64,000 nt of DNA from Acidimicrobiia bacterium (GCA_046331155.1 JAXLRK010000001.1:346301-410300), one strand, 5' to 3'. Positions 3,959-61,288 are shown, numbered from the stretch's first letter. Made by a program: numbers and translations. Notes: generated from the letters alone by a model not told the origin.

Positions 3959-3992
3959 GACCGTGCCCCGCCTCCGACGTGGCGCCACGAGG

Positions 3993-4086
3993 CGCGGGTC
4001 CCGTCGCCGGCTCAGACCAGGCCACCCTACGGCACACGGAAGGACCCGCTGAGAGCTGCTTCCTTCCGGACCTGACTCGGTTCACG
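3993..4086 (-). ncRNA. ffs: signal recognition particle RNA (small/4.5S type); boundaries approximate
   Basis: The minus strand reads GUCAGGUCCGGAAGGAAGCAGC, the conserved domain IV motif, with flanking complementary arms. It sits immediately upstream of dnaX, the conserved ffs-dnaX synteny. Confidence 0.7.
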
Positions 4087-4300
4087 GGATTCCGTTGCGC
4101 AGGACCCGGCCATCGTCGCCACGTGCGGGTCGCCTTCCTCACGGCGGCACACGCCTCGGGCGGGAATTCAGCCCCTCGTACGTGGATTGAGGGTAGAGGG
4201 CACCACGAGCTCCCCGCCTAGCACGGTCCGCACCGGCACCCTACCAGCCGTCGGCGTCGACCCGATCCGTACCGGCCCACCGCTACGATGCTCCGTTTCG

Positions 4301-5992: not shown

Positions 5993-6301
5993 TCAGCAGC
6001 CGAGCGCGTAGCTGAGGGCCGAGCACACCCGCGCCAAGGTGACGTGGTCGACTGCTCCGACGCGGGTGGTCAGCGCCGACTGGGCAATCGTGTGAAGGCC
6101 ATCGCAGTTGATGACGGATTCCTCGTCGAGGCCGGCATCCGCGTGATCGATCACGACCTCGGCCGCCAGACCACGTGCCGAGGTCGAGACCTCGGCGACC
6201 GTCACCAGCGAGCGGACATCGAGCACGTCCGTACGCGTGAGGACGACTACCGGGCGCCTCGTGCGGCCGACCTCGGCGACCCAGACCTCACCGCGATTCA
6301 C
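5993..6301 (-). CDS. type II toxin, MazF family (mycobacterial MazF-like)
   Basis: MNRGEVWVAEVGRTRRPVVVLTRTDVL... 102 aa; classic MazF N-terminus. Confidence 0.85.
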   Translation of the reverse strand: MNRGEVWVAEVGRTRRPVVVLTRTDVLDVRSLVTVAEVSTSARGLAAEVVIDHADAGLDEESVINCDGLHTIAQSALTTRVGAVDHVTLARVCSALSYALGC

Positions 6302-6507
6302 TCGTCACCCCAGCTCTCTGCTCCGGCCCAGAACTCGTCCGGCGTCTCCGGCATGTTCTGGTACGCGCGCCGATCGGCCTGCGCCAACGCCGCTCGAACG
6401 GCAGCCGCGACGCCCTCCCGGGCAGCTGCAGAGACGTTCACGCCGAGGCGGCGCGCTTGCTCCGCGAGCGATTCGTCCAGCGTGAAGGTCGTCCGGGTCG
6501 CCGCCAT
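6298..6507 (-). CDS. type II antitoxin (MazE/RHH-like)
   Basis: MAATRTTFTLDESLAEQARRLGVNVS... 69 aa. Its stop overlaps the toxin start (ATGA). Confidence 0.75.
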   Translation of the reverse strand: MAATRTTFTLDESLAEQARRLGVNVSAAAREGVAAAVRAALAQADRRAYQNMPETPDEFWAGAESWGDE

Positions 6508-13396: not shown

Positions 13397-13446
13397 CGGT
13401 CCTCCCGGGTCGGACGCCGGACGTTGACGGGCTCCAACCCGGGCTG

Positions 13447-13467
13447 TAGGATACCCCCGTATCCTAT
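13447..13467. promoter_or_regulatory. candidate CsoR operator: palindrome TAGGATAC-ccccc-GTATCCTA in the copA / csoR divergent intergenic region
   Basis: A perfect 8-bp inverted repeat around a C5 spacer seen directly. It lies 21 nt upstream of csoR, between the divergent copA and csoR starts. Confidence 0.45.
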
Positions 13468-13487
13468 ATCCGTCAACGGGGGTCCCG

Positions 13488-13769
13488 GTGCGCGGCTACA
13501 CCCTGCACAAGGACGACTACGCACGGCGCCTGCGCCGGATCGAGGGGCAGGTCCGGGGGCTCCAGCGCCTGATCGACGAGGACACGTACTGCATCGACGT
13601 GCTCACCCAGATCGTCTCGGTCACGAAGGCCCTCCAAGGGGTCGGGCTGGGCCTGCTCGACGAGCACCTCCGGCACTGCGTGCGCGAGGCCGCCGAATCG
13701 AGCCGGAGCGCGGGCGACGCCAAGATCGACGAAGCCGTGCAGGCCGTGGAGCGCCTGCTGCGCGTCTGA
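13488..13769 (+). CDS. csoR: copper-sensing transcriptional repressor CsoR
   Basis: 93 aa, RLRRIEGQVRGLQRMIEED.YCIDVLTQI... CsoR/RcnR family with Cys-His-Cys ligands. Confidence 0.85.
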   Translation: MRGYTLHKDDYARRLRRIEGQVRGLQRLIDEDTYCIDVLTQIVSVTKALQGVGLGLLDEHLRHCVREAAESSRSAGDAKIDEAVQAVERLLRV

Positions 13770-13804: not shown

Positions 13805-14008
13805 ATGACCGCGACCACCGTGTACTCCGTCCCCGGCGTGTCCTGCGAGCACTGCCGGCACGCCATCGAGACGTCCGTGGGCGTGGTCCCCGGAGTCGAA
13901 CACGTCACCGTCGACCTCGACGCCAAGACCGTGACGATCGCGGGGTCAGCGCCCGACGACGCGATGCGCGCCGCGATCGACGATGCCGGCTACGACGTGG
14001 CGGACTGA
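13805..14008 (+). CDS. copZ: copper chaperone CopZ (heavy-metal-associated domain)
   Basis: MTATTVYSVPGVSCEHCRHAIETSV... 67 aa with a CxxC HMA fold. Confidence 0.85.
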   Translation: MTATTVYSVPGVSCEHCRHAIETSVGVVPGVEHVTVDLDAKTVTIAGSAPDDAMRAAIDDAGYDVAD

Positions 14009-14016
14009 CGGGTCGT

Positions 14017-14107
14017 CAGCACGACGACTCAGCACGACGACTCAGCACGACGACTCAGCACGACGACTCGGCACGACGACTCGGCACGACGACTCAGTAC
14101 GACGACA
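14017..14107 (+). repeat. tandem repeat, about 7 copies of a 13-bp unit (cagcacgacgact), filling the convergent intergenic space between copZ and the DUF4190 gene
   Basis: Five exact copies plus variants (cggcacgacgact, cagtacgacgaca) counted directly. The period is not a multiple of 3; the last copy overlaps the final 4 codons of the minus-strand gene. Confidence 0.85.
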
Positions 14108-14540
14108 CCGAGCCACCGCCCGAGATCGACCCGCCGGTCAGGAGGATCAGGAGCACCAGCGCCGCGGCCGCGACCATCAGGCCGACGAACACCCACCCGA
14201 GGATCGCGCCGGCTCGCGCCATCCCCGACCCGCCGAGGCGCCCCTGCGACGCGTCGATCGTCCCGAGCGCCTGGTGACCGAGCACGATCGCCAGCACGCT
14301 GGTCACCGGACCCACGCAGAAGACCGCGAACGACACGATGCCGAGCACCAGCGCAGCCACCGCCGTGCCCGGCTTGGCGGGGACCGGTTGCACCCACGCG
14401 CCGGGCGGCGGCCCCCATCCCGCCGGCGGCGCCCATCCCGTCGGCGGCGCCCATCCGGTGGCTCCGGACGCGGGCGGCCCACCCGGCGGGCTGCCCGGCG
14501 GTACGGACCACGGTGGACCGGTCGGTGGGGGCTGCGACAT
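14094..14540 (-). CDS. DUF4190-domain membrane protein with a Pro/Gly/Trp-rich N-terminus
   Basis: Internal Met MSQPPPTGPPWSVPPG... then two TM helices (LVLGIVSFAVFCVGPVTSVLAIVLGHQAL); 148 aa. Confidence 0.65.
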   Translation of the reverse strand: MSQPPPTGPPWSVPPGSPPGGPPASGATGWAPPTGWAPPAGWGPPPGAWVQPVPAKPGTAVAALVLGIVSFAVFCVGPVTSVLAIVLGHQALGTIDASQGRLGGSGMARAGAILGWVFVGLMVAAAALVLLILLTGGSISGGGSVSSY

Positions 14541-14666
14541 CGGGGGAACACTACGACGGCGCGGCCCACCGACGGCGTCCGAGGACGAGGAGGGACTCCA
14601 CACCCGCCCTCGCCGCGCGCCAGGCCGGCGTGCGAGACTCGCGGGGTCCGGACGCCGAGGAGAGCC

Positions 14667-15782
14667 ATGCCGCCCGAGAAGCTCCACTGGAAGCACCTCT
14701 ACGAGGAGGTCGTCACCAGCGGCCTGTGCACGGGATGCGCCGGTTGCGTGGTCGCGTGCCCACACGACGTACTGCGTTACGACGACACCGACGGCCGGTA
14801 CAAGCCCTACCAGATCGAGGACTACGGGGGCCCCGGCGATTGCAGCCACGGCGAGAAGGGCTGCACCGCCTGCACCCGGTCCTGCCCGCGGTTCCGCGCC
14901 TGGGAGCCCGAGGTCGACGAGTTCCTGTTCGGCCGGACCCGGCGCCCCGACGAGGTCGCCGGGATCACCAAGGACATCGTGCTCGCCCGGGCCGCCGATC
15001 CCGAGCTGCATACCGTGGGCCAGGACGGCGGGCTCGTCTCCGCGATCCTCGTCTACGCGCTCGAACACGACGTCATCGACGCCGCGCTCGTGTCGTACCT
15101 CGAGGGCGACGGGAGCACGTGGAAGGCCGTACCGGGAATCGCGCGCACGCGCGCCGACGTGATCGCGTCCGCGGGAAGCCGCTACACGTACTCCGCGAAC
15201 CCGCTCGCCTTCCTGGACCTCGACAAGGAAGCCGAGCGGGTGGCGCTGGTCGGCATGAGCTGCCAGTCGTCGGTACCGCCGGTGATGAAGCAGCGCCGGG
15301 TGGGCAAGATCGCACGGAAGCTGTCGCTCACCATCGGCCTCCTGTGCTCCAAGACGTTCGACGACGCCATCTTCGAAGAGCTCCTCGAGGCCAGGTACGA
15401 CCTGCCCCGAGCGGTCATCAAGAAGATGAACATCAAGGGTCGGCTCCAGATCTGGACCCACGACGACCGTTACGTCGAGGTGCCCCTGAAGGAGTGTCAC
15501 CCGTTCACGCGTGAGGGCTGCAAGATGTGCCCCGACTTCGCGGCCGAGCACGCCGACATCTCCACGGGCGGCATCGGCGCGTTCGACGACTGGACCCTCA
15601 CCGTCGTCCGCACCGACATCGGGCGCGAACTCATCGAGAAGATGGCGGCCGACGGGTGGATCGAGACCCGCCCGGGCGACGACGACCCGGGTGCGATAGA
15701 GCTCATGAGGAAGCTGGCCGCCAAGAGCCGGGCCCGCTGGCCCGAGTTCGCGGTCGAGGCGCCGCGTCTCGTCGGCCCGTGA
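14667..15782 (+). CDS. coenzyme F420 hydrogenase/dehydrogenase beta-subunit family protein (FrhB/FdhB-like)
   Basis: N-terminal CTGCAGCVVACP Fe-S motif and C-terminal GCKMCPDFAAEHADIS motif; 371 aa. Confidence 0.75.
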   Translation: MPPEKLHWKHLYEEVVTSGLCTGCAGCVVACPHDVLRYDDTDGRYKPYQIEDYGGPGDCSHGEKGCTACTRSCPRFRAWEPEVDEFLFGRTRRPDEVAGITKDIVLARAADPELHTVGQDGGLVSAILVYALEHDVIDAALVSYLEGDGSTWKAVPGIARTRADVIASAGSRYTYSANPLAFLDLDKEAERVALVGMSCQSSVPPVMKQRRVGKIARKLSLTIGLLCSKTFDDAIFEELLEARYDLPRAVIKKMNIKGRLQIWTHDDRYVEVPLKECHPFTREGCKMCPDFAAEHADISTGGIGAFDDWTLTVVRTDIGRELIEKMAADGWIETRPGDDDPGAIELMRKLAAKSRARWPEFAVEAPRLVGP

Positions 15783-33034: not shown

Positions 33035-33245
33035 CTCGCCTCCCGGTCGTTGTCACTGCGACGTCTCTATCGACTCGCTTCTCTGCGGCCTTGCGCAGGT
33101 TCCTTCGCGCTTGCTCGCCATAAAACGGACTATACGGACTGTCCAGCGGGGTCGCGATCGAATTTCGCGCCGTCGCCCGTGGGCCACCGGCATTCGTCAC
33201 GCCGATACCTGTAGCCCTACGCTGGAGGATCGAAACGCCTGGGAG

Positions 33246-34403
33246 GTGGGATTGCTCAACGTCTCGTCGCTGCTCGGTGTGCGCAGGTCGGGTTCGGACG
33301 CGCTCCGGTACGGGGCGCAGCGAGACGGCGAGCGCACGCCCGACAGCGCCCTGGCCCGCCGACCCGTGGTCGTCTGGAACTCGACCCGTGCCTGCAACCT
33401 CACCTGCACCCACTGCTACGCCTCCGCCAAGTCCGGCCCGGCCCCCGACGAGCTCAGCCGCGACGAGGCGTTCGCGTTCCTCGACGACCTCGCCACCTAC
33501 GGCGTACCCGCGGTGCTGCTCTCGGGTGGCGAGCCGTTGACGCGACCCGACCTGCTCGAGCTCATCGGGCACGGCATCGATCGCGGCCTGCGGTTCACCC
33601 TCTCCACGAACGGCACGCTCATCGACAAGCCGACCGCGGTCGCGATTGCCGGCGCCGGCGTCACCTACGTGGGTGTCAGCATCGATGGTTCCGAGGCCAC
33701 CCACGACCGCGTCCGGTGCCGCGCCGGAGCGTGGGAGCAATCGGTGCGAGGCCTGCGCAACCTCGCGTCTGCGGGCGCGAAGCGCGGCGTGCGTTACACC
33801 CTCACACCCGACAGCCGGCCGGATCTCCACGACGTGCTCGGGCTCGTCGAGCGCGAGCACGTCGAACGCTTCTGCATGTACCACCTGGCACCGTCGGGCC
33901 GCGGGAAGTACCTCCACGACGTCACACCCGACGAACGACGCACCGCACTGCGCGACGTCTTCGAGTTCGCGCTGACGCACCCTGAGGTCGAAGTGCTCAC
34001 GGTGGACAACCCCTCCGACGGCGTCGCCCTCCTGCAATGGCTCGCCGACCACGACCCGGACCGGGCCGAGGCGTGCCGCGCCGCGCTGGTGTGGAACCGC
34101 GGCGCGCGGGGCGGACCGGGTATCGGGTTGGCCGCGGTCGACGAGCGTGGCGACGTGCACCCCGACCAGTTCTCCCGCCATCGCACCGTCGGAAACGTCC
34201 GGCACCGCCCGTTCTCGGAGATCTGGTCGCACCCCGAGGACCCGTACCTCCAGGCCCTGCGGGCCGGCAGTTGGTCGCTGTCGGGAGAGTGCCAGGCCTG
34301 CGAGGGACGCGAACTGTGCAACGGCGGCCTGCGGTCGCGAGCCGAACAGTCGACGGGCGACATTTGGGGCTTCGACCCCTCGTGCAGCCTCCGCGCCTCA
34401 TGA
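33246..34403 (+). CDS. radical SAM/SPASM-domain protein, NirJ/AhbC/AhbD-like
   Basis: CNLTCTHCY (CxxxCxxC) preceded by VVVWNSTRA, then a C-terminal SPASM Cys cluster (CQACEGRELCNGG...FDPSCSL). The start is GTG/TTG near a gggagg SD. Confidence 0.8.
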   Translation: MGLLNVSSLLGVRRSGSDALRYGAQRDGERTPDSALARRPVVVWNSTRACNLTCTHCYASAKSGPAPDELSRDEAFAFLDDLATYGVPAVLLSGGEPLTRPDLLELIGHGIDRGLRFTLSTNGTLIDKPTAVAIAGAGVTYVGVSIDGSEATHDRVRCRAGAWEQSVRGLRNLASAGAKRGVRYTLTPDSRPDLHDVLGLVEREHVERFCMYHLAPSGRGKYLHDVTPDERRTALRDVFEFALTHPEVEVLTVDNPSDGVALLQWLADHDPDRAEACRAALVWNRGARGGPGIGLAAVDERGDVHPDQFSRHRTVGNVRHRPFSEIWSHPEDPYLQALRAGSWSLSGECQACEGRELCNGGLRSRAEQSTGDIWGFDPSCSLRAS

Positions 34404-35443
34404 CCCGCACGCGCGCCACGCTGGCCCGGCCGCAGATCTCGGGCGACTTCTCGCGCGCACCCTTCACCATCGCATGGGAGATCACGCGCGCGTGCCCGTT
34501 GCGCTGCGTGCACTGCCGCGCCGACGCGCAGACCAAGCGCCGCCCCGACGAGCTGACGACCGGAGAGGGCCTCGATCTCGTCGCCCAGGCCGCGGAGATG
34601 GGCACCCAGGTGTTCGTCATCACCGGCGGCGACCCGCTGGCGCGGCCCGACGCGTTCGAGTTCATCGGAGCCGCGGCGAGCCGCGGCATGCACGTCGGCT
34701 TCTCGCCCAGCGTCACGCCCCGCCTTACTCCCGCCGCGATGGCCCGCGCCGTGGATGCGGGCGCGGGCACGATCCATCTCAGCCTCGACGGGGCGCGCCC
34801 TGAGACCCACGACGGGTTCCGCGGTGTCACCGGTTCGTTCGAACGCACGTTGCGCGCGCTCGACGCCGCATCCGAGCTCGAGGTCCGCGTGCAGGTCGGC
34901 ACCACGGTGTCGCGCCGCACCGTCGCCGACCTCCCCGAGGTCGTGACCCTGCTCGCCGGCAGAGTGGAGCTCTGGAGCCTGTTCTTCCTCGTGCCGACCG
35001 GCCGGGCCGAGGCGCAGGACCTGCTGTCGCCGGATGCGCACGAGCGCGTCCTGCGCTGGCTGGCCACCGCCGACATCCCGTTCCCGGCCCGGACCATTGC
35101 CGCGCCCACCTACCGGCGCGTGCGCGCCCAGCTCGGGCTCCCCCCCGGCCCGGGTGTGAACGACGGCAACGGCTTCTGCTTCGTTTCTCACACCGGCGAC
35201 GTGTGCCCTTCGGGGTTCCTCCAGCTCCCGGCGGGCAACCTCCGTGATGCACCGCTCGCCCACTGGTACCGGGAGTCGCCGTTGTTCCGATCACTGCGCG
35301 ACCCGGCGCTCCTGGGCGGGAAGTGCGGCCGCTGCGACTTCCGTCAGATCTGCGGAGGGAGCCGAGCCCGCGCCTGGGGCCTCACCGGCGACCCGCTGGC
35401 GGAGGACCCGACGTGCGCCTACCAGCCCGGAAGCACGCCGTGA
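34400..35443 (+). CDS. radical SAM/SPASM-domain protein, NirJ/AhbC/AhbD-like (second of the tandem pair)
   Basis: ATGA overlap with the upstream gene. FTIAWEITRACPLRCVHCRADA, then SPASM CGRCDFRQICGGSRARAW...DPTCAY. Confidence 0.8.
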   Translation: MTRTRATLARPQISGDFSRAPFTIAWEITRACPLRCVHCRADAQTKRRPDELTTGEGLDLVAQAAEMGTQVFVITGGDPLARPDAFEFIGAAASRGMHVGFSPSVTPRLTPAAMARAVDAGAGTIHLSLDGARPETHDGFRGVTGSFERTLRALDAASELEVRVQVGTTVSRRTVADLPEVVTLLAGRVELWSLFFLVPTGRAEAQDLLSPDAHERVLRWLATADIPFPARTIAAPTYRRVRAQLGLPPGPGVNDGNGFCFVSHTGDVCPSGFLQLPAGNLRDAPLAHWYRESPLFRSLRDPALLGGKCGRCDFRQICGGSRARAWGLTGDPLAEDPTCAYQPGSTP

Positions 35444-36015
35444 CGGGCGCCACCGACGCGACGACCGGATCCGCGAGCGGCGCGAGCGGAGGGACTTGGT
35501 CCGAGCTGTCGCTCGGCGCGCTCGCGACCCACATCGACGCCGTGCACCACGCCTACCTGCGCCGCGAGCTCCCCAGGATCGTCGGGCTCGCCCATCGCGC
35601 CGAGACCACGTGCATCGAGCGCCACCGCGAGGCGCCCCGCCTGGCCGAGCTCGTCGACACCCTCGCCGCGGATCTCGTGTTGCACACCATGAAGGAGGAG
35701 CGGGTGCTCTTCCCGCTATGCCGGTACCTGGACCTCGTCGACGAGCTCGACGCGGAGTACCAGGGCTCGATCATGGGTCCCATCGGATGCATGACGTGTG
35801 AGCACGAAGCGGCGTCGCGCGATCTCGAGGAGCTCGACACGCTCGTCTCCGCGTCCACCGACGACTCGGACCCCGACTGGACGGAGCTCCTCGACGCCCT
35901 ACGCGATCTGGTCGCAGACGTCCGCCTCCACATGCTCAAGGAGGACACCGGGTTGTTCCCCCGGGCACTCGCGCGCGAAGGCGAGCTGCAGGCCGGCTCC
36001 GGCGGTCACCCCTAG
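35440..36015 (+). CDS. hemerythrin-like di-iron domain protein (RIC/ScdA-like pattern)
   Basis: GTGA-coupled to the second rSAM gene. HIDAVHHAYLRRELPRI...HTMKEERVLFP and a second His-rich half. Confidence 0.65.
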   Translation: MTGATDATTGSASGASGGTWSELSLGALATHIDAVHHAYLRRELPRIVGLAHRAETTCIERHREAPRLAELVDTLAADLVLHTMKEERVLFPLCRYLDLVDELDAEYQGSIMGPIGCMTCEHEAASRDLEELDTLVSASTDDSDPDWTELLDALRDLVADVRLHMLKEDTGLFPRALAREGELQAGSGGHP

Positions 36016-36031
36016 AGCAAGATCGGCCCGG

Positions 36032-36499
36032 TCAGCGTGCGGCACGCGCAGCGTAGAGCTCTTCGGGCGTGCGCTTCGGTGGCCTCTGGCCGACGTGACC
36101 CTTCTCGTAGCCCACGATCTTGGGGCATCGCACGGGGCTGGCATCGTCGCATCGAACGCACGACCACGGCATCGACGTGTCGGCCCGCCACAGCGTGTGC
36201 CCACACGCGGGGCACAGGTCGATCATCAGCGAGCAGTCCCAGCCCGCAAACGGTGCGTCGCGGTCGGAGCGCAGCGGGCACCCGCGCTCGCGGCAGATCA
36301 CCGAGTCAGGGTCGGTGAGGATGCAGTCGAGCGGGCACATCGGGGCACAGTCACCGCAGTCGCCGCACCGGTTGCTGGAGATCCAGAACACCGCCGGGTG
36401 CGGTGCATCCGGCTCCGGCCGATGGATCGCCTCGCTCGGGCACACGTACTCGCACGCCCCGCAGTTGATGCAGACCTCCGGCAGGATCAGCAGGCTCAC
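36032..36499 (-). CDS. 4Fe-4S ferredoxin-domain protein with an extra Cys-rich C-terminal extension
   Basis: CINCGACEYVCP and CGDCGDCAPMCP clusters plus CPACGH / CVRCDD...CPK motifs; 155 aa. Confidence 0.75.
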   Translation of the reverse strand: MSLLILPEVCINCGACEYVCPSEAIHRPEPDAPHPAVFWISSNRCGDCGDCAPMCPLDCILTDPDSVICRERGCPLRSDRDAPFAGWDCSLMIDLCPACGHTLWRADTSMPWSCVRCDDASPVRCPKIVGYEKGHVGQRPPKRTPEELYAARAAR

Positions 36500-36981
36500 G
36501 TCGCCCCTGCGAAGACGGTTGGCACCTTGGCCGCCTCCTCGATGTAGGCCTGGAGCGTGGCGTTGAACCGGTAGAACGCGTCGACGCCGAGCTGCTCGTC
36601 ACCCTCGAGGTGAAAGCGGTCGCCGGCCAACACCAGGCTGTTCAGCGTGTGGTACGCGTCCGCGTTGCCGCGCTCCCGGATGTGTTCCACGAGCTCTCGC
36701 CAATCCTCGGCCGACGCCGCGATCACACAGTCGACCGGAGCGGTGCCGTCCCAGCTCGACACGTCCGCGCAACCGAAGTCCACGAACACGAGGCGGAATC
36801 CCTCCGCACCGACGCGAAGCGCCAACGTGATCTCGGTGACGCCGAGGCGCCGGTACCGAGCTTCGTCGGCCGCCGCCTCGTCGGCCAGGGCCCGGAACCA
36901 CGCCACCGACGGGAACGTGATCGCCTCAGCGTCGGTCGGCTGTTTCGATTGCTCCGCTCGCTCGGTCGCGTTCGCAGTCAT
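36496..36981 (-). CDS. SCP2-like (sterol-carrier-protein-2 fold) domain protein
   Basis: FRLVFVDFG...WDG...DCVIAASAEDW... pattern; 161 aa. ATGA-coupled on both sides. Confidence 0.5.
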   Translation of the reverse strand: MTANATERAEQSKQPTDAEAITFPSVAWFRALADEAAADEARYRRLGVTEITLALRVGAEGFRLVFVDFGCADVSSWDGTAPVDCVIAASAEDWRELVEHIRERGNADAYHTLNSLVLAGDRFHLEGDEQLGVDAFYRFNATLQAYIEEAAKVPTVFAGAT

Positions 36982-38783
36982 CGGTCTCCTCGGCGCTCGG
37001 CGCGCATGTGTTCGGTTGCATCGGCGTCGACGGTGAGGGTGAGGTCCTCGAGCGAGCCGGAGAGGACGACGCCGTAGTCGCGGGCCGCACCCTCGATGCT
37101 CACGTACTCGTCGAGCACGTCGTCGAGCACGGCCTGCGGATCGCGGTCGAGCGGATCGCCCCAGCCGCCACCGCCGCCGTAGTCGTACATGATGCGCTCG
37201 CCCGCCGCGATCGGCACCCAGTCGGCGGTGTGACGCACGGTGAACGGATCATCCGAGCCGTACCGGATCACGAGGGCGTTCGGTTCTCCGGAGCGGCCCC
37301 CGGCGATGCCGGGCATCGGGTACTTCATGCCGACCACGTACGTGTAGACCTTGGCGTCGACACGGACTTCCTTCTCGTAGTGGCTGCCGCACAAGCCGCG
37401 CCACTGGCCGGGGCCACCGCTGTCGGTGCGGTAGTCGCGGCTCCACTGGACGTGCGGGTAGAGGCTCTCGTTGATCTCGGCCGTGGCCTTCCACAGGTTG
37501 CCGAAGCTGGCGTTCTGGGCGCCCCACGCGTCCATGCCCCTCGCCGCGTTGCACCAGCCCGCGTACACCTCGGCCGAGTGGTCGGTGAACGTCTCGCCGG
37601 TGTGCGGGTCCACGCCGACGATCACCGTCGGGATCCCGGTCTTGTAGGTCTGCGGCACCGCGCGGTCCGGGATGACCTGCTGGAGCGCGAGCGCGATCGC
37701 GTCGCCGACCTCGGTACCGGGATGGTGGGTGCCCGCGCTCACCGGCTTCCCGAACGGCGGGTTGAGCACGCAACCGTCGGGTATGTGCAGCTCGACGCTC
37801 TCGAAGAAGCCCTCGTTCTTGGGGATCGATGGGTCGAGCATCGCCGCGATCTGGGAGATGGTGTACCCGCGTGCGTTGCCGTAGCTCGACCACGCCTGCA
37901 GCTCGGGGCGGGCATCGGTGCCGGCGAAGTCGACGATCAGCCGGTCGCCTTCCACGGCGACACGCACGTGGATGCGGACGTCGGGGTTGCCCCACGGGTC
38001 GTGGTCGGCAAGCGCGTCGGCCTCGTAGACGCCGTCGGACCACTTCCTGATCTCGTCGCGGAACCGGCGGGCGGTCGAGTCGACGAACCAGTCCACGGCG
38101 GCCTCGACGGCGTCGGCACCGAAGCGCGCGAGGACTTCGCCGAGGCGCGCGACTCCGAGTTGGGCCGCGCCGATCTGGGCGCGGAGATCGCCGAGGTAGC
38201 CGGATGAGCGGTTGTTGGCCTGGAGCGAGTAAAGCACGTCGCGCCGTTCGGCTCCCGCGTCGACCACCTTCAGCACCGGGATGCGTACGCCCTCGCCCCA
38301 GATGTCCGTCGCGGTCACGTTGTAGCCGCCGGGTACGGACCCGCCGGTGTCGCCGTGGTGGCACTGGATGCTCGCCATGAGCACCCGGCGCCCATCGGCG
38401 AACACCGGGGCGAACACGTTGTAGTCCGGAAGGTGCCCACCGCCGTGGTACGGGTCGTTGGCGAGGAACACGTCGCCCGGGTGGATGTCGTCGTCGCCGA
38501 AGAACCCGACCGCGAAGCGTACGGGTAGCGACGACGACAACATGAGCTGTGGAACGCCCACCGACACCGCCGCGAGCCGGCCGTTGCGGTCGAGGATCGA
38601 CGCGTTGCGTTCGTTGCTCTGGTTGAGGATAGGGGTGGTCGCCGTGCGCGAGACGTAGACCGCCATCTCGAAGCAGATCGTCTCCATCGCGGAGCGCACG
38701 ACCTCCGCCGTCACCGGATCGACGGTCCCGCCGTCGGTGAGCCGCGGGCGGGGCTTCGCGAGCTCGTCGAGGTCTACTCGCAT
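36978..38783 (-). CDS. hydantoinase B / oxoprolinase family protein (HyuB-like), with no HyuA partner in the window
   Basis: 601 aa; ...DPYHGGGHLPD...GDTGGSVPGG... signature regions of the HyuB family. Confidence 0.88.
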   Translation of the reverse strand: MRVDLDELAKPRPRLTDGGTVDPVTAEVVRSAMETICFEMAVYVSRTATTPILNQSNERNASILDRNGRLAAVSVGVPQLMLSSSLPVRFAVGFFGDDDIHPGDVFLANDPYHGGGHLPDYNVFAPVFADGRRVLMASIQCHHGDTGGSVPGGYNVTATDIWGEGVRIPVLKVVDAGAERRDVLYSLQANNRSSGYLGDLRAQIGAAQLGVARLGEVLARFGADAVEAAVDWFVDSTARRFRDEIRKWSDGVYEADALADHDPWGNPDVRIHVRVAVEGDRLIVDFAGTDARPELQAWSSYGNARGYTISQIAAMLDPSIPKNEGFFESVELHIPDGCVLNPPFGKPVSAGTHHPGTEVGDAIALALQQVIPDRAVPQTYKTGIPTVIVGVDPHTGETFTDHSAEVYAGWCNAARGMDAWGAQNASFGNLWKATAEINESLYPHVQWSRDYRTDSGGPGQWRGLCGSHYEKEVRVDAKVYTYVVGMKYPMPGIAGGRSGEPNALVIRYGSDDPFTVRHTADWVPIAAGERIMYDYGGGGGWGDPLDRDPQAVLDDVLDEYVSIEGAARDYGVVLSGSLEDLTLTVDADATEHMRAERRGDR

Positions 38784-38789
38784 CGCGCG

Positions 38790-39944
38790 TCAGACCCGGT
38801 ACCGCACGGACTCGGGCAGCGAGAGCGACGCCACGTCGATGCCGAAGACCCGCGCCGCATTGGTCTCGAGGAGCTGCTTCTGCTCCGCTGCCGGGACGCC
38901 CGCGAGCGCCGTCTCGATCGCCTTGCGCGAGTGCGGATAGGTCGACGTCGGATGCGGGAAGTCGGCCTCCCACATGATGTTCTCGAGACCGATCATGTGG
39001 CGCAGCGCGATGCCGCTGGCCTCGAACCAGAAGTTCACGTAGCACTGCCGGCGGAAGTACTCGCTCGGCCGCATCGTGAGGCCTTCATCCCAGAGGTGCT
39101 GCTGCTCGTACTGGTGGTCGGCCGTCTCCAGGAGGTAGGGCACCCAGCCCAGACCGGACTCGACCGAGAGGAAGTTCAGCGTCGGGTGACGCTCGAGCAC
39201 ACCGGAGAACAGCAGGTTGGCCATCACCTGCACGTTGCTCGTGATGGCCAGCACCGAGCGCATCGCCAGCTGCCGGTAGCTCTCGTATCCCGACCAGAGA
39301 TCCCGGTCCAGCTTCGCCGAGCCGATGTGCAGTGCAACCGGCATCCGCAGTTCGGCGAGGGTCGACCAGAGTGTGTCCCAGTAGGTCTCGTTGAAGTGGG
39401 GGAAGCCGTAGGCGTGCGGCGCGGCCGTCCACACGACGGCCTTGTGTCCGATCGAGTGCGCCCGGCGCACCTCCTCCACCGCGAGCGCGACGTCCCACAT
39501 CGGGATGAGGCACTGCGCCACGTACCGCGGACTCGTGCCCGTCCACTCCTCGGCCAGGTAGTCGTTGTACGCCCGGATGCACGCGAGTCGCAGCTCCGGT
39601 GAGCCCTTGGTGCTCACGAACGGCCCGCCGCCGAAGCCGGCCGCCTGGGGGAACAGCACCTCGACCGCGACCCCGTCCGCATCCATCTCGCGCAGCCGCG
39701 CCGCGGGGTCCCACGCGGCCGCCGGTGCCTCCTCGAAGAACTTCAGCGCCCCCCGGTCGGGAAGCATCGCGGCCACGCCCGTACCGACGTTGCGGACCCG
39801 CTCGCCCGCGTAGACCCACCAGTGCTCGCCGTCGAGCACCTCGAGGTGCGGGCAGTCGTCGACGAACTTCGCGGGCACGCGCGACGTCCACGTGTCCTTG
39901 TGCTCCCACGCGTGGTCGTCCGTCGAGATCGGGTAGATGTCCAC
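38790..39944 (-). CDS. amidohydrolase-2 family protein (ACMSD/LigW-type metal-dependent hydrolase/decarboxylase)
   Basis: 384 aa; VDADGVAVEVLFP, HIG, WEADFPHP motif pattern of amidohydrolase_2. Confidence 0.8.
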   Translation of the reverse strand: MDIYPISTDDHAWEHKDTWTSRVPAKFVDDCPHLEVLDGEHWWVYAGERVRNVGTGVAAMLPDRGALKFFEEAPAAAWDPAARLREMDADGVAVEVLFPQAAGFGGGPFVSTKGSPELRLACIRAYNDYLAEEWTGTSPRYVAQCLIPMWDVALAVEEVRRAHSIGHKAVVWTAAPHAYGFPHFNETYWDTLWSTLAELRMPVALHIGSAKLDRDLWSGYESYRQLAMRSVLAITSNVQVMANLLFSGVLERHPTLNFLSVESGLGWVPYLLETADHQYEQQHLWDEGLTMRPSEYFRRQCYVNFWFEASGIALRHMIGLENIMWEADFPHPTSTYPHSRKAIETALAGVPAAEQKQLLETNAARVFGIDVASLSLPESVRYRV

Positions 39945-39977
39945 CGGTACTCCCCTCGGGCGCGATCGGATCGTGGC

Positions 39978-41144
39978 TCAGAACGGCAGGTCGGGCGGCA
40001 GCATGCACGCCTCACGCCGGTCGAGGCCGGCGCGCGCAGTGCGCGAGAGGTACTCCTCGCGCATCTTGCGGTACACCCCCTTGTAGATGTCGAGGCCGGC
40101 GTCGAAGTTCTCCACGCCCTCCCCCGCGAGCACCGCGCACGACTCGACCGTCGCCGGGTGCATGAAGAACAGGTCGAGGAAGAACATCTCGGCCATGGTC
40201 GCGAGCTGGTTGAGCTGCTGGCGTTGGTGGTCCGGATCCGGCGCGTGCTCGAGGAGGTACTTCAGGTGCATCGTGCCGTACGAGACGTGACGCGCCTCGT
40301 CCTGCATGACCATGCGGAAGATCTGCTTGTCGACGTCGGTCTTGCCGAGGAACTCGCCGAAGCGGAACATCGAGAGGATCGCCCCCTCGAACACGACGTG
40401 GATCGCGTACGAGACGTGGTCCCACGTCGAGAACAGGTCGTTGTCCGACGCTTGGCCGATGGCCCGTGCATCGGATTGGCCCATCGCCGCGAGCGCGTTG
40501 CCGAGGTTGATGGTCATCCCGAGGCCCCCACCGTTGGCGAGGATCCGCTTGCGGAACACCTCGGTGTGACGCGCCTCGTCCATGGCCTGCTGCGCGATGA
40601 AGAGCTTGATCTCGTGGTAGTAGGTGTTGAACTGCGGCAACCACGGCGCGAGGACGTCGGTGGCCAGGTACTCGCCCATCGTGAGGAACGTGTTGTACTG
40701 GCAGAGCGCGCGCTCGAGATCGGGCGGCAGCTCCTCGAGCTTGCTCCACTCGATGTCCTGGGTCGCGCTCCACTGCCGGCTGCAGCCCTCCTCGTAGAGC
40801 GTCGCCAGGTTGTCGGCCCAGACCTCCCACTGGTTGTTGATGGCCCACACCCGTGGCAGCAGTCCGGGCTCGGAACCCGCCCCGCGCGGCGCGATGCTGT
40901 CGGGCGCGACCGGCGCGATCTCGATCCCCGACGCCGCGTCGGCCTCCATCAGCGTGAGGCCGCGCCGGCCCGGCACCGCACGCGAGGCCCACGTGCCCCA
41001 GACACCGTCACCCGGCGTGGCCCGCAGCCACGTCAGGTCCGCGTCGCCCGCGCGGAGCCGAGAGGGGTAGGGCCGGGCCGCCACCTGCTCGGCGAACTCG
41101 GACGGGCTGGGAACACCGGGCCTGGATACGGCCGTGCTGGTCAT
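39978..41144 (-). CDS. ferritin-like di-iron oxygenase family protein (AurF-like N-oxygenase pattern)
   Basis: Internal Met with a GAGGAGGG SD. Two DEARH (E-x-x-H) motifs about 75 residues apart in a helical protein; 388 aa. Confidence 0.6.
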   Translation of the reverse strand: MTSTAVSRPGVPSPSEFAEQVAARPYPSRLRAGDADLTWLRATPGDGVWGTWASRAVPGRRGLTLMEADAASGIEIAPVAPDSIAPRGAGSEPGLLPRVWAINNQWEVWADNLATLYEEGCSRQWSATQDIEWSKLEELPPDLERALCQYNTFLTMGEYLATDVLAPWLPQFNTYYHEIKLFIAQQAMDEARHTEVFRKRILANGGGLGMTINLGNALAAMGQSDARAIGQASDNDLFSTWDHVSYAIHVVFEGAILSMFRFGEFLGKTDVDKQIFRMVMQDEARHVSYGTMHLKYLLEHAPDPDHQRQQLNQLATMAEMFFLDLFFMHPATVESCAVLAGEGVENFDAGLDIYKGVYRKMREEYLSRTARAGLDRREACMLPPDLPF

Positions 41145-41250
41145 CGGCCCTCCTCGGGGGAGCGGGCGGTCCGAGATGCCGCAATATGACGGCGTCGTCA
41201 GGTCACCGTAAGTCCCGCAGTTCGTGGAGTCAAGAACGACAGGAGGATCC

Positions 41251-42021
41251 TCAGCCGAGGTCCTCGCCGGGCGCGACCAGCCGGCGGCCGGCCGTGAACC
41301 CACCGTCGACCACCAGGGCATGCCCGGTGACGAACGACGCGTCGTCGGACGCGAGGAACAGCGCGGCCGCGGCCACCTCCTCCGGTTGCCCCGAGCGCAG
41401 CATCATGTGCTGTTCGACGAAGCGGTCGTAGACCTTGCGCAGCCAGTCCTCGTGCAGCATGGCCGTCATCGGGGTCTCGACGAGGCCGGGACAGAGGCAG
41501 TTCACCCGGATGCCGAGGTGGCCGTAGTCGACGGCCATGTTCTTCGTGAGCAGGATCACACCGGCCTTGCTCACGTTGTAGGCGGTCTGGCCCTGGAAGG
41601 CCTCGACGCCCTCGATGCTGGCGAGGTTCACGATGCTGCCGCCACGAACGTCGCGCACCATGTGGTTGACGACGTGCTTGGAGACGAGCCACGTCCCCTT
41701 GAGGTTCACGCCGACGATCCGGTCCCACTCGGCTTCGTCGAGGTCGCCCGCGGTCGCGGCACCGCCGACGCCGGCCGCGTTCACGAGGATGTCGAAGTTC
41801 CCAAGCGTCTCGTGGGCCGCTTGGACCGCGCCGGCCACGGCTGCCTCGTCGGCCACGTCCGCGACCAACCACCGCTCGACAGCCGGATCGTCGCCGGCGG
41901 CGAGATCGAGACCGATGACGCGCGCGCCTTCCTGGTGGAACCGCCGTGCACAGGCCCGACCGATACCCGACGCCGCGCCGGTGACGAGTGCGGTGCGGCC
42001 CGTGATCCGGTCGTTCGACAT
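41251..42021 (-). CDS. SDR-family NAD(P)-dependent oxidoreductase
   Basis: TGAASGIGRA, NAAG, catalytic Y..xK (YNVSKAG); 256 aa. Start set at MSNDRI with a GAGGAG SD. Confidence 0.9.
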   Translation of the reverse strand: MSNDRITGRTALVTGAASGIGRACARRFHQEGARVIGLDLAAGDDPAVERWLVADVADEAAVAGAVQAAHETLGNFDILVNAAGVGGAATAGDLDEAEWDRIVGVNLKGTWLVSKHVVNHMVRDVRGGSIVNLASIEGVEAFQGQTAYNVSKAGVILLTKNMAVDYGHLGIRVNCLCPGLVETPMTAMLHEDWLRKVYDRFVEQHMMLRSGQPEEVAAAALFLASDDASFVTGHALVVDGGFTAGRRLVAPGEDLG

Positions 42022-42184
42022 GGATGGCTCCTCACAGATTGTGGCTCCCGAGGTCGCCGGCGAGGTTACCGAGCTCGACGCGGCGTGGGGAATGCGAGGA
42101 GGCCCGGGACGCGGAACCGCCGGGGCGTCCATGCCCCGGCGGTTCTGCCGACCGTTCGTGGTACCGGCCGTCGGGCCGGCTTCC

Positions 42185-57816: not shown

Positions 57817-57889
57817 CGCGCTCGGAGGGACTCGAACCCCCAACCTTCTGATCCGTAGTCAGATGCTCTATCCATTGAGCTACGAGCGC
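57817..57889 (-). tRNA. tRNA-Arg (anticodon ACG), no encoded CCA
   Basis: The minus strand reads GCGCTCGTAGCTCAATGGATAGAGCATCTGACTACGGATCAGAAGGTTGGGGTTCGAGTCCCTCCGAGCGCG; a clean cloverleaf. Confidence 0.9.
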
Positions 57890-61195: not shown

Positions 61196-61288
61196 TGGCG
61201 GAGGGCGAGGGATTTGAACCCTCGAGGGGGCTAATCACCCCCTACTCGCTTAGCAGGCGAGCACCTTCGGCCACTCGGTCAGCCCTCC
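61196..61288 (-). tRNA. tRNA-Ser (anticodon GCT) with a genomically encoded CCA end
   Basis: The minus strand reads GGAGGGCTGACCGAGTGGCCGAAGGTGCTCGCCTGCTAAGCGAGTAGGGGGTGATTAGCCCCCTCGAGGGTTCAAATCCCTCGCCCTCCGCCA. Confidence 0.9.

What the first reader, a model, noticed from the sequence alone, without database searches (positions are those of the whole stretch)
33035..36015. Tandem NirJ/AhbC/AhbD-like radical SAM/SPASM pair with a hemerythrin-like di-iron protein: unexpected in a high-GC actinobacterial context
Two about 350-385-aa radical SAM enzymes are overlap-coupled (ATGA). Their N-terminal patterns (..VVVWNSTRACNLTCTHCY.. and ..FTIAWEITRACPLRCVHCR..) and C-terminal SPASM twin-Cys clusters resemble the NirJ/AhbC/AhbD tetrapyrrole-modifying subgroup. 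That subgroup serves siroheme-dependent heme or heme d1 biosynthesis. Actinobacteria normally use the coproporphyrin-dependent route, so either an alternative tetrapyrrole modification or a different substrate (for example a RiPP or cofactor) is implied. A GTGA-coupled hemerythrin/RIC-like di-iron protein follows, which fits protection or repair of the Fe-S enzymes. No AhbA/B-like decarboxylase or precursor peptide is visible in the window.
Basis: partly seen in the sequence, partly recalled or inferred. Interest (0 to 1): 0.7.

Follow-up and report, generated by a model that had tools for sequence, protein, structure and literature searches.

The report
Oxygen-independent haem-synthesis radical SAM gene pair
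An uncultured Acidimicrobiia bacterium carries an operon for two radical-SAM enzymes related to AhbC and AhbD, the last two enzymes of the oxygen-free haem pathway, followed by an iron-centre-repair-type di-iron protein; the pair is common in this lineage, so it is a lineage variant of a known system and not a new kind of system.

Summary
**Observation: confirmed.** Three co-directional, overlapping genes are present.
- A (33252-34403, 383 aa) is a radical SAM enzyme of the AhbC/NirJ1/NirJ group. It scores below every curated family cut-off.
- B (34400-35443, 347 aa) is a bona fide member of the uncharacterised family TIGR04053. Its closest characterised relative is the haem b synthase AhbD.
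- C (35413 or 35440 to 36015) is a stand-alone YtfE/RIC-type di-iron hemerythrin domain.

**Source and distribution.** The window comes from an Acidimicrobiia MAG. The A-B pair is not an oddity there. It is adjacent in 9 inspected loci of Acidimicrobiia-like relatives and is inferred on about 17 further contigs. JGI already names members 'Fe-coproporphyrin III synthase' and 'AdoMet-dependent heme synthase'.

**Classification of A.** A tree and 15 of 18 discriminating positions place A with AhbC/NirJ1, not with the haem d1 enzyme NirJ.

**Missing partner.** No siroheme decarboxylase (AhbA/B) lies within 10 kb in any relative or anywhere in the window. It does lie beside 66 more distant homologues.

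**Context in relatives.** These include a CtaA-B fusion, Nar/EBDH-type molybdoenzymes, and NirK/NorB clusters. This points to anaerobic haem supply.

**C is not conserved.** The hemerythrin lies in a 5.8-kb stretch that the closest relative lacks.

**Verdict.** This is a new member of a known kind and is moderately interesting. The substrate of A is unresolved.

The parts
33035..33251 (.). Divergent intergenic region between the flotillin gene (-) and gene A (+); presumed promoter and leader of the operon
   Evidence: No Rfam family. No sigma-70 consensus or terminator. No plausible small + strand ORF. Several short blocks are shared with the orthologous region of L169, but no motif is common to all relatives. 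GGGAGG at 33241-33246 precedes the TTG start.
33252..34403 (+). Gene A: AhbC/NirJ1-type radical SAM enzyme, 383 aa. Radical SAM triad C48x3C52x2C55; auxiliary cluster motif C347x2C350x5C356x21C378; invariant C208.
   Evidence: NCBIfam scores: NirJ1 359 bits (cut-off 650), pseudo-SAM Halo 336 (525), AhbC 327 (650), NirJ 321 (515), so all are below cut-off. The exact protein is P0001. The clade nests in the bacterial NirJ1/AhbC group. 15 of 18 AhbC-versus-NirJ discriminating positions are of AhbC type.
34400..35443 (+). Gene B: AhbD-like radical SAM enzyme of family TIGR04053, 347 aa. Radical SAM triad C32x3C36x2C39; C260x8C269; C309x2C312x5C318x20C339. Its ATG overlaps A's stop codon (ATGA).
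   Evidence: TIGR04053 409.6 bits against a cut-off of 395 (member). AhbD 273.8 against 500; NirJ2 184 against 500. 100% identical to NCBI 'radical SAM protein [Acidimicrobiia bacterium]'. JGI names clade members 'AdoMet-dependent heme synthase'. One relative is a single ORF with a CtaA/COX15 domain fused to B.
35413..36015 (+). Gene C: stand-alone hemerythrin-like di-iron protein resembling the C-terminal domain of YtfE/RIC. It is 200 aa from GTG 35413 (preceded by GGAGGA) or 191 aa from GTG 35440 (GTGA overlap).
   Evidence: Pfam Hemerythrin 64.4 bits (cut-off 25.3). TIGR03652 RIC 84.4 bits against 204.7, matching only profile positions 61-216. Aligns to E. coli YtfE residues 65-219 at E 5e-12, with HxxxE, H and HxxxE positions conserved. 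Public gene call of 200 aa. Absent from all relatives' loci.
36032..36499 (-). Neighbour D: 2x[4Fe-4S] ferredoxin with a C-terminal Cys-rich extension, convergent with the operon. A possible but unproven electron partner.
   Evidence: Pfam Fer4 families. A 36%-identical homologue lies directly upstream of A-B on the same strand in L165. It belongs to the H-G-F-E-D operon, whose core H + E-like + amidohydrolase/hydantoinase set is a module of its own elsewhere.

Best explanation
This is an operon for oxygen-independent completion of haem b synthesis in an uncultured Acidimicrobiia bacterium.

Gene B (family TIGR04053, closest characterised relative AhbD) is proposed to be the radical-SAM haem b synthase. 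Its CX3CX2C [4Fe-4S] cluster cleaves SAM reductively. [quoted passage not shown] These are then oxidatively decarboxylated to vinyl groups. The C-terminal CX2CX5CX20C cluster carries away the electron, so neither O2 nor H2O2 is needed.

Gene A is a lineage-specific orthologue of AhbC/NirJ1. By homology it removes the two acetate side chains of 12,18-didecarboxysiroheme to give coproheme, the substrate of B. This requires a siroheme decarboxylase encoded elsewhere in the genome.

Gene C is a YtfE/RIC-type di-iron domain added only in this genome. It would protect or repair the oxygen- and NO-sensitive Fe-S clusters.

The module supplies haem b to respiratory enzymes when oxygen is scarce.

Shown: gene structure, family placement, cluster motifs, conservation of the A-B pair, and genomic contexts. 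Inferred: substrates, products, the role of C, and the existence of the upstream steps.
For: - Family scores: B passes the TIGR04053 cut-off and its next-best match is AhbD. A's best four matches are NirJ1, the haloarchaeal AhbC-like pseudo-SAM family, AhbC and NirJ.
- NJ tree: the A clade sits inside the bacterial NirJ1/AhbC group and outside the NirJ clade. The B clade sits inside the AhbD/NirJ2 group. The partners co-vary: L116 and L110 carry the sister forms of both A and B.
- At 18 positions that separate AhbC/NirJ1 (found with AhbAB and NirJ2 neighbours) from NirJ (found with NirDLGH neighbours), the A clade has the AhbC state at 15 and the NirJ state at 2.
- The tandem order A then B is the same as the NirJ1-NirJ2 tandem in Verrucomicrobia and other loci.
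- A-B adjacency was seen in the window, L081, L084, L085, L165, L166, L169, L170 and L171. In addition, 19 A-clade and B-clade clusters share an identical longest-contig length (inference).
- Links to haem: a CtaA(COX15)-B fusion ORF. L165 lies beside a Nar/EBDH-type molybdoenzyme with an EB_dh haem-b subunit, NarJ, MobB and YwiC. L166 lies beside a molybdopterin oxidoreductase. The outgroup pairs L110 and L116 are embedded among NirK-like, nitrite-transporter, qNorB and cupredoxin genes.
- Cluster motifs match those published for NirJ, AhbC and AhbD (PMC10114771).
- C retains six of seven YtfE di-iron ligand positions (ligand list from memory).
- Published genomics states that AhbD occurs in Gram-positives using the coproporphyrin route (PMC13564367, PMC10548856).
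Against: - A fails every curated equivalog cut-off (359 against 650 for NirJ1; 327 against 650 for AhbC). B fails the AhbD cut-off (274 against 500).
- An HMM for AhbA/B/NirDLGH built here finds these genes beside 66 distant homologues. It finds nothing, even at E<=10, in the window or in 12 loci of the clade.
- No tetrapyrrole gene was seen among the window genes scanned with Pfam; about seven called ORFs, including the ORFs in the failed, were never scanned.
- The A clade has an invariant Pro at position 254, where AhbC/NirJ1 have His (92%) and NirJ has Asp (100%).
- A occurs without B (L082, L164) and B without A (L168).
- Actinomycetota are described as users of the coproporphyrin route, in which didecarboxysiroheme is not made (PMC10991733).
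- No member of either clade has been characterised. C is not conserved with the pair.
Confidence: 0.55

Rival explanations
1. Hybrid or bypass model. The organism uses the coproporphyrin-dependent route. B is the anaerobic substitute for the H2O2-dependent coproheme decarboxylase ChdC. A does not act on didecarboxysiroheme. Instead it has a different tetrapyrrole substrate or reaction, for example another oxygen-independent step feeding coproheme, or a modification of siroheme or coproheme.
For: - No AhbA/B in any of 12 clade loci or in the window.
- AhbD-like genes are reported in coproporphyrin-route Gram-positives that lack the other Ahb enzymes (PMC13564367).
- The anaerobic replacement for ChdC is described as still unknown in Bacillaceae work (PMC10965808).
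- A is below all equivalog cut-offs and carries a clade-specific H254P change at a position that is otherwise group-diagnostic.
- B-type proteins look more numerous than A-type proteins and occur alone.
Against: - A keeps 15 of 18 AhbC-type signature residues and all conserved Cys residues of NirJ1/AhbC.
- A and B co-evolve as a pair.
- ahb genes are often dispersed, so absence within 10 kb is weak evidence.
- Verrucomicrobial NirJ1-NirJ2 pairs also lack adjacent AhbAB.
- No alternative reaction can be named from sequence.
Confidence: 0.27
2. Haem d1 branch. A is a NirJ-type enzyme that removes propionates of didecarboxysiroheme for a cd1 nitrite reductase.
For: NirJ scores 321 bits, close to the AhbC score. 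Related pairs sit in denitrification clusters.
Against: - The A clade lies outside the NirJ clade.
- It has the NirJ state at only 2 of 18 discriminating positions, lacking the NirJ-specific Y208/S210/G251/T306.
- No NirDLGH-like gene is found in any clade locus, and the Pfam lists for the window and the clade loci show no recognisable cd1 nitrite-reductase gene.
- The nitrite reductases in the denitrification contexts are copper-type.
Confidence: 0.03
3. Peptide or cofactor maturases (RiPP, mycofactocin-like or PQQ-like SPASM enzymes) unrelated to tetrapyrroles.
For: Generic radical SAM/SPASM similarity to MftC, PqqE, SkfB and others.
Against: - MftC scores 133 and 138 bits against a cut-off of 265. 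PqqE scores 84 and 104 against 381.
- No small ORF or precursor lies beside the genes.
- No peptidase, transporter or carrier genes are present.
- Both clades nest inside the tetrapyrrole group.
- The CtaA fusion links B to haem.
Confidence: 0.03

Closest known systems
AhbC / NirJ1 (12,18-didecarboxysiroheme deacetylase = Fe-coproporphyrin III synthase; TIGR04546, TIGR04054) of the siroheme-dependent 'alternative' haem pathway
   Same: - Full-length homology to gene A (residues 4-380 against profile positions 3-382).
- Same CX3CX2C and CX2CX5CX21C motifs and the same invariant C208/Y210/H211.
- Same position immediately upstream of an AhbD-type gene.
- 15 of 18 group-diagnostic residues are shared.
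   Different: - Scores reach only about half of the curated cut-offs.
- Identity to the nearest named NirJ1 (P0111) is only 48%.
- Invariant Pro replaces the conserved His at position 254.
- No AhbA/B is nearby, although it is adjacent at all 12 loci used as the AhbC/NirJ1 reference set and at 66 distant loci in all.
- The host phylum is thought to use the coproporphyrin route.
AhbD / NirJ2 (radical SAM haem b synthase, TIGR04545) and the uncharacterised family TIGR04053
   Same: - B is a member of TIGR04053 by the curated cut-off. AhbD is its second-best family.
- It has the radical SAM triad and a C-terminal auxiliary-cluster motif like AhbD's (PMC10114771).
- It is paired with an AhbC-type gene.
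- JGI names clade members 'AdoMet-dependent heme synthase'.
   Different: - Below the AhbD equivalog cut-off (274 against 500).
- The motif is CX2CX5CX20C, whereas the published AhbD motif is CX2CX5CX2CX17C.
- The upstream Cys pair is present in only about 65% of the clade.
- No TIGR04053 member was found characterised in the searchable literature.
NirJ (haem d1 biosynthesis radical SAM enzyme, TIGR04051)
   Same: Same superfamily, same auxiliary Cys motif, same presumed substrate class.
   Different: Separate clade. Diagnostic residues differ. No NirDLGH-like genes in the window or clade loci, and no cd1 nitrite-reductase genes recognisable in their Pfam lists.
YtfE / RIC / ScdA / DnrN (repair of iron centres di-iron proteins)
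   Same: - C aligns to the di-iron four-helix domain of E. coli YtfE (E 5e-12), with the HxxxE, H and HxxxE ligand positions conserved.
- A plausible role is protection of Fe-S enzymes under NO or oxidative stress.
   Different: - It lacks the N-terminal ScdA_N domain: it matches only profile positions 61-216.
- It scores 84 bits against a cut-off of 204.7.
- The position equivalent to YtfE His105 aligns with Cys58.
- It is not conserved beside the radical SAM pair.

Membership tests
AhbC (TIGR04546) / NirJ1 (TIGR04054) | Score at or above the curated equivalog cut-off (650 bits each) | tested here: not met
   A scores 327 bits (AhbC) and 359 bits (NirJ1).
AhbC (TIGR04546) / NirJ1 (TIGR04054) | Radical SAM CX3CX2C motif plus a C-terminal CX2CX5CX20-21C auxiliary cluster motif | tested here: met
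   C48/C52/C55 and C347/C350/C356/C378 are invariant in 67 clade sequences and in 51 NirJ1-like sequences. The motif definition is from PMC10114771.
AhbC (TIGR04546) / NirJ1 (TIGR04054) | Residues that distinguish AhbC/NirJ1 from NirJ | tested here: met
   15 of 18 positions have the AhbC/NirJ1 state, 2 have the NirJ state and 1 has neither (P254). The reference groups were defined by gene context, not by assay.
AhbC (TIGR04546) / NirJ1 (TIGR04054) | Substrate supply: siroheme decarboxylase AhbA/B in the same cluster or genome | tested here: not met
   Neighbourhood only. There are 0 hits at E<=10 in the window (64 kb) and in 12 clade loci, against 66 distant loci with hits. Genome-wide presence could not be tested.
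AhbC (TIGR04546) / NirJ1 (TIGR04054) | Conversion of didecarboxysiroheme to coproheme | not testable with these tools
   This needs a biochemical assay.
TIGR04053 radical SAM/SPASM family | Score at or above the curated cut-off (395 bits) | tested here: met
   B scores 409.6 bits, E 1.3e-122.
AhbD haem b synthase (TIGR04545) | Score at or above the curated cut-off (500 bits) | tested here: not met
   B scores 273.8 bits.
AhbD haem b synthase (TIGR04545) | Radical SAM triad plus a C-terminal auxiliary [4Fe-4S] motif | tested here: met
   C32/C36/C39 and C309/C312/C318/C339 are invariant in 116 sequences. The spacing (CX2CX5CX20C) differs from the published CX2CX5CX2CX17C (PMC10114771).
AhbD haem b synthase (TIGR04545) | Coproheme to haem b activity | not testable with these tools
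   Indirect support only: the CtaA-B fusion and haem-protein neighbourhoods.
NirJ (TIGR04051) | Curated cut-off of 515 bits; NirDLGH/NirS/NirF context; NirJ-type diagnostic residues | tested here: not met
   321 bits. No nirDLGH-like genes were found. NirJ state at 2 of 18 positions. Outside the NirJ clade.
Mycofactocin maturase MftC (TIGR03962) / PqqE (TIGR02109) | Curated cut-offs (265 and 381 bits) and an adjacent precursor peptide | tested here: not met
   A and B score 133 and 138 bits for MftC, and 84 and 104 bits for PqqE. No small ORF is present.
RIC / YtfE (TIGR03652) | Curated cut-off of 204.7 bits; two-domain architecture (ScdA_N plus hemerythrin) | tested here: not met
   84.4 bits. 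Only profile positions 61-216 are matched, so there is no N-terminal domain.
Hemerythrin HHE cation-binding domain (PF01814) | Pfam gathering score of 25.3; His/Glu di-iron ligands | tested here: met
   64.4 bits. H37, H82/E86, H122 and H164/E168 align with YtfE ligand positions. The His105 equivalent is C58.
SPASM domain (PF13186) | Pfam gathering score of 21.5 | tested here: inconclusive
   A scores 22.6 bits, only just above the cut-off. B has no match at E<=1e-3. The Cys count suggests one full auxiliary site in A and one plus a partial site in B.

The most novel reading that the evidence does not exclude
Acidimicrobiia and related deep-branching Actinomycetota either (a) run a siroheme-dependent haem pathway in a phylum regarded as exclusively coproporphyrin-dependent, or (b) use an AhbC-like radical SAM enzyme that works without any AhbA/B siroheme decarboxylase. 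In case (b), A would catalyse a so far undescribed oxygen-independent tetrapyrrole step. Together with the AhbD-like B it would form a two-enzyme anaerobic bypass of the oxygen-dependent steps of the coproporphyrin route.
Probability: 0.25. Interest if true: 0.65.

Novelty: new member of a known kind. Interest (0 to 1): 0.38.

Why it matters
How organisms that use the coproporphyrin route make haem without oxygen is only partly solved. CgoN was found only in 2024 and is almost confined to Bacillaceae. That paper calls the anaerobic replacement for ChdC a 'yet unknown' enzyme (PMC10965808), and reviews suggest that AhbD-like proteins fill the role (PMC13564367).

The B clade (TIGR04053) is an abundant, uncharacterised and experimentally tractable candidate. 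Its tight pairing with an AhbC-like enzyme, with no visible siroheme decarboxylase, raises the question of what feeds it.

The result would also refine haem-pathway predictions for uncultured Actinomycetota from soils and sediments, and their capacity for anaerobic respiration. If AhbA/B turn up elsewhere in the genome, the finding reduces to a taxonomic extension of a known pathway.

Tried and rejected
- **Collection scans.** The genome-collection scan with A returned only relatives of 44% identity or less.
- **Metagenome scan.** Run with an A-clade alignment, it was swamped by a generic CNL[AST]CxHCY pattern and gave only two short close relatives. It did provide many NirJ and NirJ1 reference loci.
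- **Regulatory elements.** Rfam found no riboswitch or RNA near the operon. The promoter/terminator scan found nothing. A search for FNR/CRP-type palindromes upstream of A in nine loci found no shared site, only single weak matches.
- **RiPP precursor.** No candidate ORF lies in 33035-33251.
- **Solved structures.** No AhbC, AhbD or NirJ structure matched at E<=1e-5. The nearest chains are SkfB, BlsE and PqqE, matched over the radical SAM core only. Structure prediction was therefore judged uninformative and not run.
- **Link between the convergent H-G-F-E-D operon and A-B.** I considered this because L165 has H-E-D directly upstream of A-B. I largely rejected it. The H + small protein + amidohydrolase (+ hydantoinase) set, without a ferredoxin, is a self-standing module in Myxococcota and other genomes without A-B. 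The closest relative, L169, has A-B without it.
- **Context of a TIGR04053-like gene in a Vicinamibacteria MAG (L023).** No haem genes were found.
- **Literature.** No paper mentions TIGR04053. None links ahbC or ahbD to Acidimicrobiia, Thermoleophilia or Gaiellales. Two key Dailey papers are not in the library.
- **Failed call.** One Pfam call failed on a wrong frame.


Full report
**1. What is in the sequence**

The region holds three co-directional + strand genes.

- **Gene A** runs from TTG 33252 to 34403 (383 aa). GGGAGG lies 5 nt upstream of the start. A protein of exactly this sequence is on public record (P0001).
- **Gene B** runs from ATG 34400 to 35443 (347 aa). Its start overlaps A's stop as ATGA. 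It is 100% identical to an NCBI protein named 'radical SAM protein [Acidimicrobiia bacterium]' from a 2.63-Mb contig (P0121). The window is therefore an uncultured Acidimicrobiia genome (phylum Actinomycetota, about 70% G+C).
- **Gene C** ends at 36015. It can start at GTG 35440 (GTGA overlap, 191 aa). It can also start at an in-frame GTG at 35413, which has a GGAGGA box 5 nt upstream and is the start used by the public gene call (200 aa).

The quoted N-terminal motifs are present. No Rfam element, promoter or terminator consensus, or small ORF lies in the 217-bp upstream spacer.

**2. Family placement**

- **A.** NCBIfam gives NirJ1 359 bits (cut-off 650), the haloarchaeal AhbC-like pseudo-SAM family 336 (525), AhbC 327 (650) and NirJ 321 (515). 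TIGR04053 and AhbD score about 205. MftC scores 133 (265) and PqqE 84 (381). A is clearly in the AhbC/NirJ1/NirJ group but is a member of no curated equivalog.
- **B.** It scores 409.6 bits on TIGR04053 (cut-off 395), so it is a member of that uncharacterised family. AhbD comes next at 274 (500), then NirJ2 at 184.
- **C.** It passes Pfam Hemerythrin (64 bits). It matches only the C-terminal di-iron part of RIC/YtfE (TIGR03652 positions 61-216; 84 bits against 204.7). It aligns to E. coli YtfE residues 65-219 at E 5e-12. H37, H82/E86, H122 and H164/E168 fall on ligand positions, and C58 falls where YtfE has His105 (the ligand list is from my memory of the YtfE structure papers).
- **Solved structures.** None is closer than SkfB, BlsE or PqqE.

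**3. Cluster-binding motifs**

- A has C48x3C52x2C55 and C347x2C350x5C356x21C378. All are invariant in its clade and in NirJ1-like proteins. C208 and H211 are also invariant. This is the CX2CX5CX20-21C motif published for NirJ and 'almost the same' in AhbC and AhbD (PMC10114771).
- B has C32x3C36x2C39 and an invariant C309x2C312x5C318x20C339. It also has C260x8C269, which is kept in only about 65% of the clade.
- 'Twin SPASM clusters' is therefore an overstatement for A.

**4. Distribution and conservation**

- A's closest relatives are 55-81% identical and come from metagenomes and from MAGs labelled Gaiellales or Acidimicrobiia. JGI names several of them 'Fe-coproporphyrin III synthase'.
- B's relatives (55-81% identical) are labelled Acidimicrobiia, Acidimicrobiales, Gaiellales, Actinomycetia or Dehalococcoidia. 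JGI names several 'AdoMet-dependent heme synthase'.
- A and B are adjacent in the window, L081 (both frameshifted), L084, L085, L165, L166, L169, L170 and L171.
- Nineteen A-clade clusters have exactly the same longest-contig length as a B-clade cluster, mostly contigs of 2.7-9 kb. I infer from this that they lie on the same contig.
- A occurs alone in L082 and L164. B occurs alone in L168.
- The hemerythrin C was found beside the pair nowhere else.
- The closest relative, L169 (A 80%, B 81%), is colinear with the window from lgt to the end of B. It then continues directly with the SDR gene that lies at 41257-42033 in the window. C and the convergent genes D-H (35440-41250) are therefore a 5.8-kb indel.

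**5. AhbC-type or NirJ-type?**

An NJ tree of 88 sequences splits into a C-type half and a D-type half. It has no bootstrap support and its reference groups are defined by gene context.

- The A clade lies inside the bacterial NirJ1/AhbC radiation and outside the proteobacterial NirJ clade.
- The B clade lies in the AhbD/NirJ2 half.
- L116 carries the sister of A and the sister of B, so the two genes have evolved as a pair.

I then defined two reference groups by gene context:

- AhbC/NirJ1: 12 loci with both an AhbD-type neighbour and AhbA/B.
- NirJ: 40 loci preceded by NirDLGH-type genes and with no AhbD-type neighbour.

Nineteen alignment positions are conserved at 80% or more within each group but differ between the groups. 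Of these, 18 have an A-clade consensus of at least 60%. At those 18, the A clade has the AhbC/NirJ1 residue at 15 (for example C208, Y210, V251, Q306), the NirJ residue at 2, and its own invariant Pro at position 254, where AhbC/NirJ1 have His and NirJ has Asp.

**6. The missing decarboxylase**

Using AhbA and AhbB from a canonical methanogen cluster (L019: AhbD-AhbA-AhbB-AhbC), I built an HMM. It detects AhbA/B/NirDLGH-type ORFs in 66 of the distant loci. It detects none, even at E<=10, in the 64-kb window, in the 12 loci of the Acidimicrobiia clade, or in the verrucomicrobial NirJ1-NirJ2 loci. Pfam scans of most of the window's called genes found no tetrapyrrole gene; about seven ORFs, including those in the failed, were not scanned. 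Whether AhbA/B, siroheme synthesis or the ChdC/CpfC/CgoX genes exist elsewhere in the genome could not be tested.

**7. Functional context**

- One relative encodes a single ORF in which the C-terminal part of a CtaA/COX15 haem A synthase is fused in frame to a B-type enzyme. This rests on a single metagenome contig.
- In L165 the pair is followed by a thioesterase and MobB. It lies beside a Nar/ethylbenzene-dehydrogenase-type molybdoenzyme operon with an EB_dh haem-b subunit and a NarJ-type chaperone, plus YwiC.
- In L166 a molybdopterin oxidoreductase follows B.
- The outgroup pairs L110 and L116 are embedded among NirK-like multicopper proteins, a formate/nitrite transporter, a cupredoxin and a qNor-type NorB.

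These contexts fit a module that supplies haem b for anaerobic respiration. They also give a rationale for a RIC-type protein, since RIC proteins are associated with NO stress (my knowledge). The literature states that AhbD is found in Gram-positives that use the coproporphyrin route and lack the other Ahb enzymes (PMC13564367, PMC10548856). [quoted passage not shown]

**8. Interpretation**

- **Most likely (0.55).** A and B are lineage-specific orthologues of AhbC and AhbD and perform the two radical-SAM steps that end in haem b without oxygen. C is a genome-specific Fe-S protection accessory.
- **Main rival (0.27).** B is the anaerobic ChdC substitute in a coproporphyrin-route organism, and A has a different, unknown tetrapyrrole substrate. 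The absent AhbA/B, the sub-threshold scores and the H254P change keep this alive.
- **Disfavoured.** Haem d1 (NirJ) and RiPP or cofactor maturase readings are disfavoured by sections 2, 5 and 6.

**9. Novelty and score**

The gene kind, the tandem arrangement and even the automated names are known, and the pair is common in its lineage. What is new is the documentation of a distinct AhbC-like clade in Actinomycetota, tightly paired with TIGR04053 and lacking a nearby siroheme decarboxylase. The one-off coupling to a RIC-like domain is also new. I rate it a new member of a known kind, interest 0.38. There is a 0.25 chance that it hides either a siroheme-dependent route in Actinomycetota or a new AhbC-like reaction.

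Noticed in passing
window 36032-41321 (- strand): A convergent five-gene operon H-G-F-E-D. H is a ferritin-like di-iron protein with no Pfam family (447-aa ORF; 388 aa in NCBI, named 'ferritin-like domain-containing protein'). G is an amidohydrolase_2. F is a hydantoinase B with no hydantoinase A. E is an unannotated 161-aa protein with a weak SCP2 hint. D is a 2x[4Fe-4S] ferredoxin with a Cys-rich tail. The H + small protein + amidohydrolase (+ hydantoinase A/B) core, without a ferredoxin in those loci, is conserved in Myxococcota and other MAGs, there next to nosL/apbE/nosZ-like/nosD genes (L172, L173). In L165, H-E-D lies directly upstream of A-B. Function unknown.
   Followed up: partly
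window 35440-41250 compared with L169 9783: A 5.8-kb segment (hemerythrin C plus operon D-H) is absent from the closest syntenic relative. There, B's 3' end abuts the SDR gene that lies at 41257-42033 in the window. No repeats or mobile-element genes were looked for at the junctions.
   Followed up: partly
L168 4658-6445: A single ORF fuses the C-terminal part of a CtaA/COX15 haem A synthase to a B-type (TIGR04053) radical SAM enzyme. This is a possible gene-fusion ('Rosetta stone') link of the family to haem metabolism. It is a single metagenome contig, so an assembly or frameshift artefact is not excluded.
   Followed up: partly
L110 3158-16588; L116 6518-13430: The AhbC-like/AhbD-like pairs that branch just outside the A and B clades sit inside denitrification-type clusters (NirK-like multicopper proteins, formate/nitrite transporter, cupredoxin, qNorB). 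These clusters have no AhbA/B.
   Followed up: partly
A residue 254 (window about 34011-34013): The A clade has an invariant Pro in the motif LTVDNPSDG. AhbC/NirJ1-type proteins have His there (92%) and NirJ has Asp (100%). This is a candidate specificity determinant.
   Followed up: no
L081 9879-12166 (Acidimicrobiia MAG GCA_027494135.1): Both A and B orthologues are interrupted by frameshifts in this 1.65-Mb contig. The cause is either long-read assembly errors or pseudogenisation.
   Followed up: no
L001-L005 (Akkermansia and other Verrucomicrobia): NirJ1-like/NirJ2-like tandem pairs (43% and 39% identity to A and B) also lack any AhbA/B-like gene within 10 kb. The 'pair without decarboxylase' pattern is therefore not unique to Acidimicrobiia.
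   Followed up: partly
window 3961-4226 (-), 57817-57889 (-), 61199-61288 (-): Bacterial large SRP RNA (175 bits) and two tRNA genes.
   Followed up: no
window 11147-13769; 5993-6304; 13935-15782: A CsoR-type metal repressor lies divergent from a heavy-metal P-type ATPase (copper-type pair). There is a MazF/PemK toxin gene. There is also an FrhB/FdhB-like F420-dependent oxidoreductase beta-subunit homologue with a 4Fe-4S dicluster domain.
   Followed up: no
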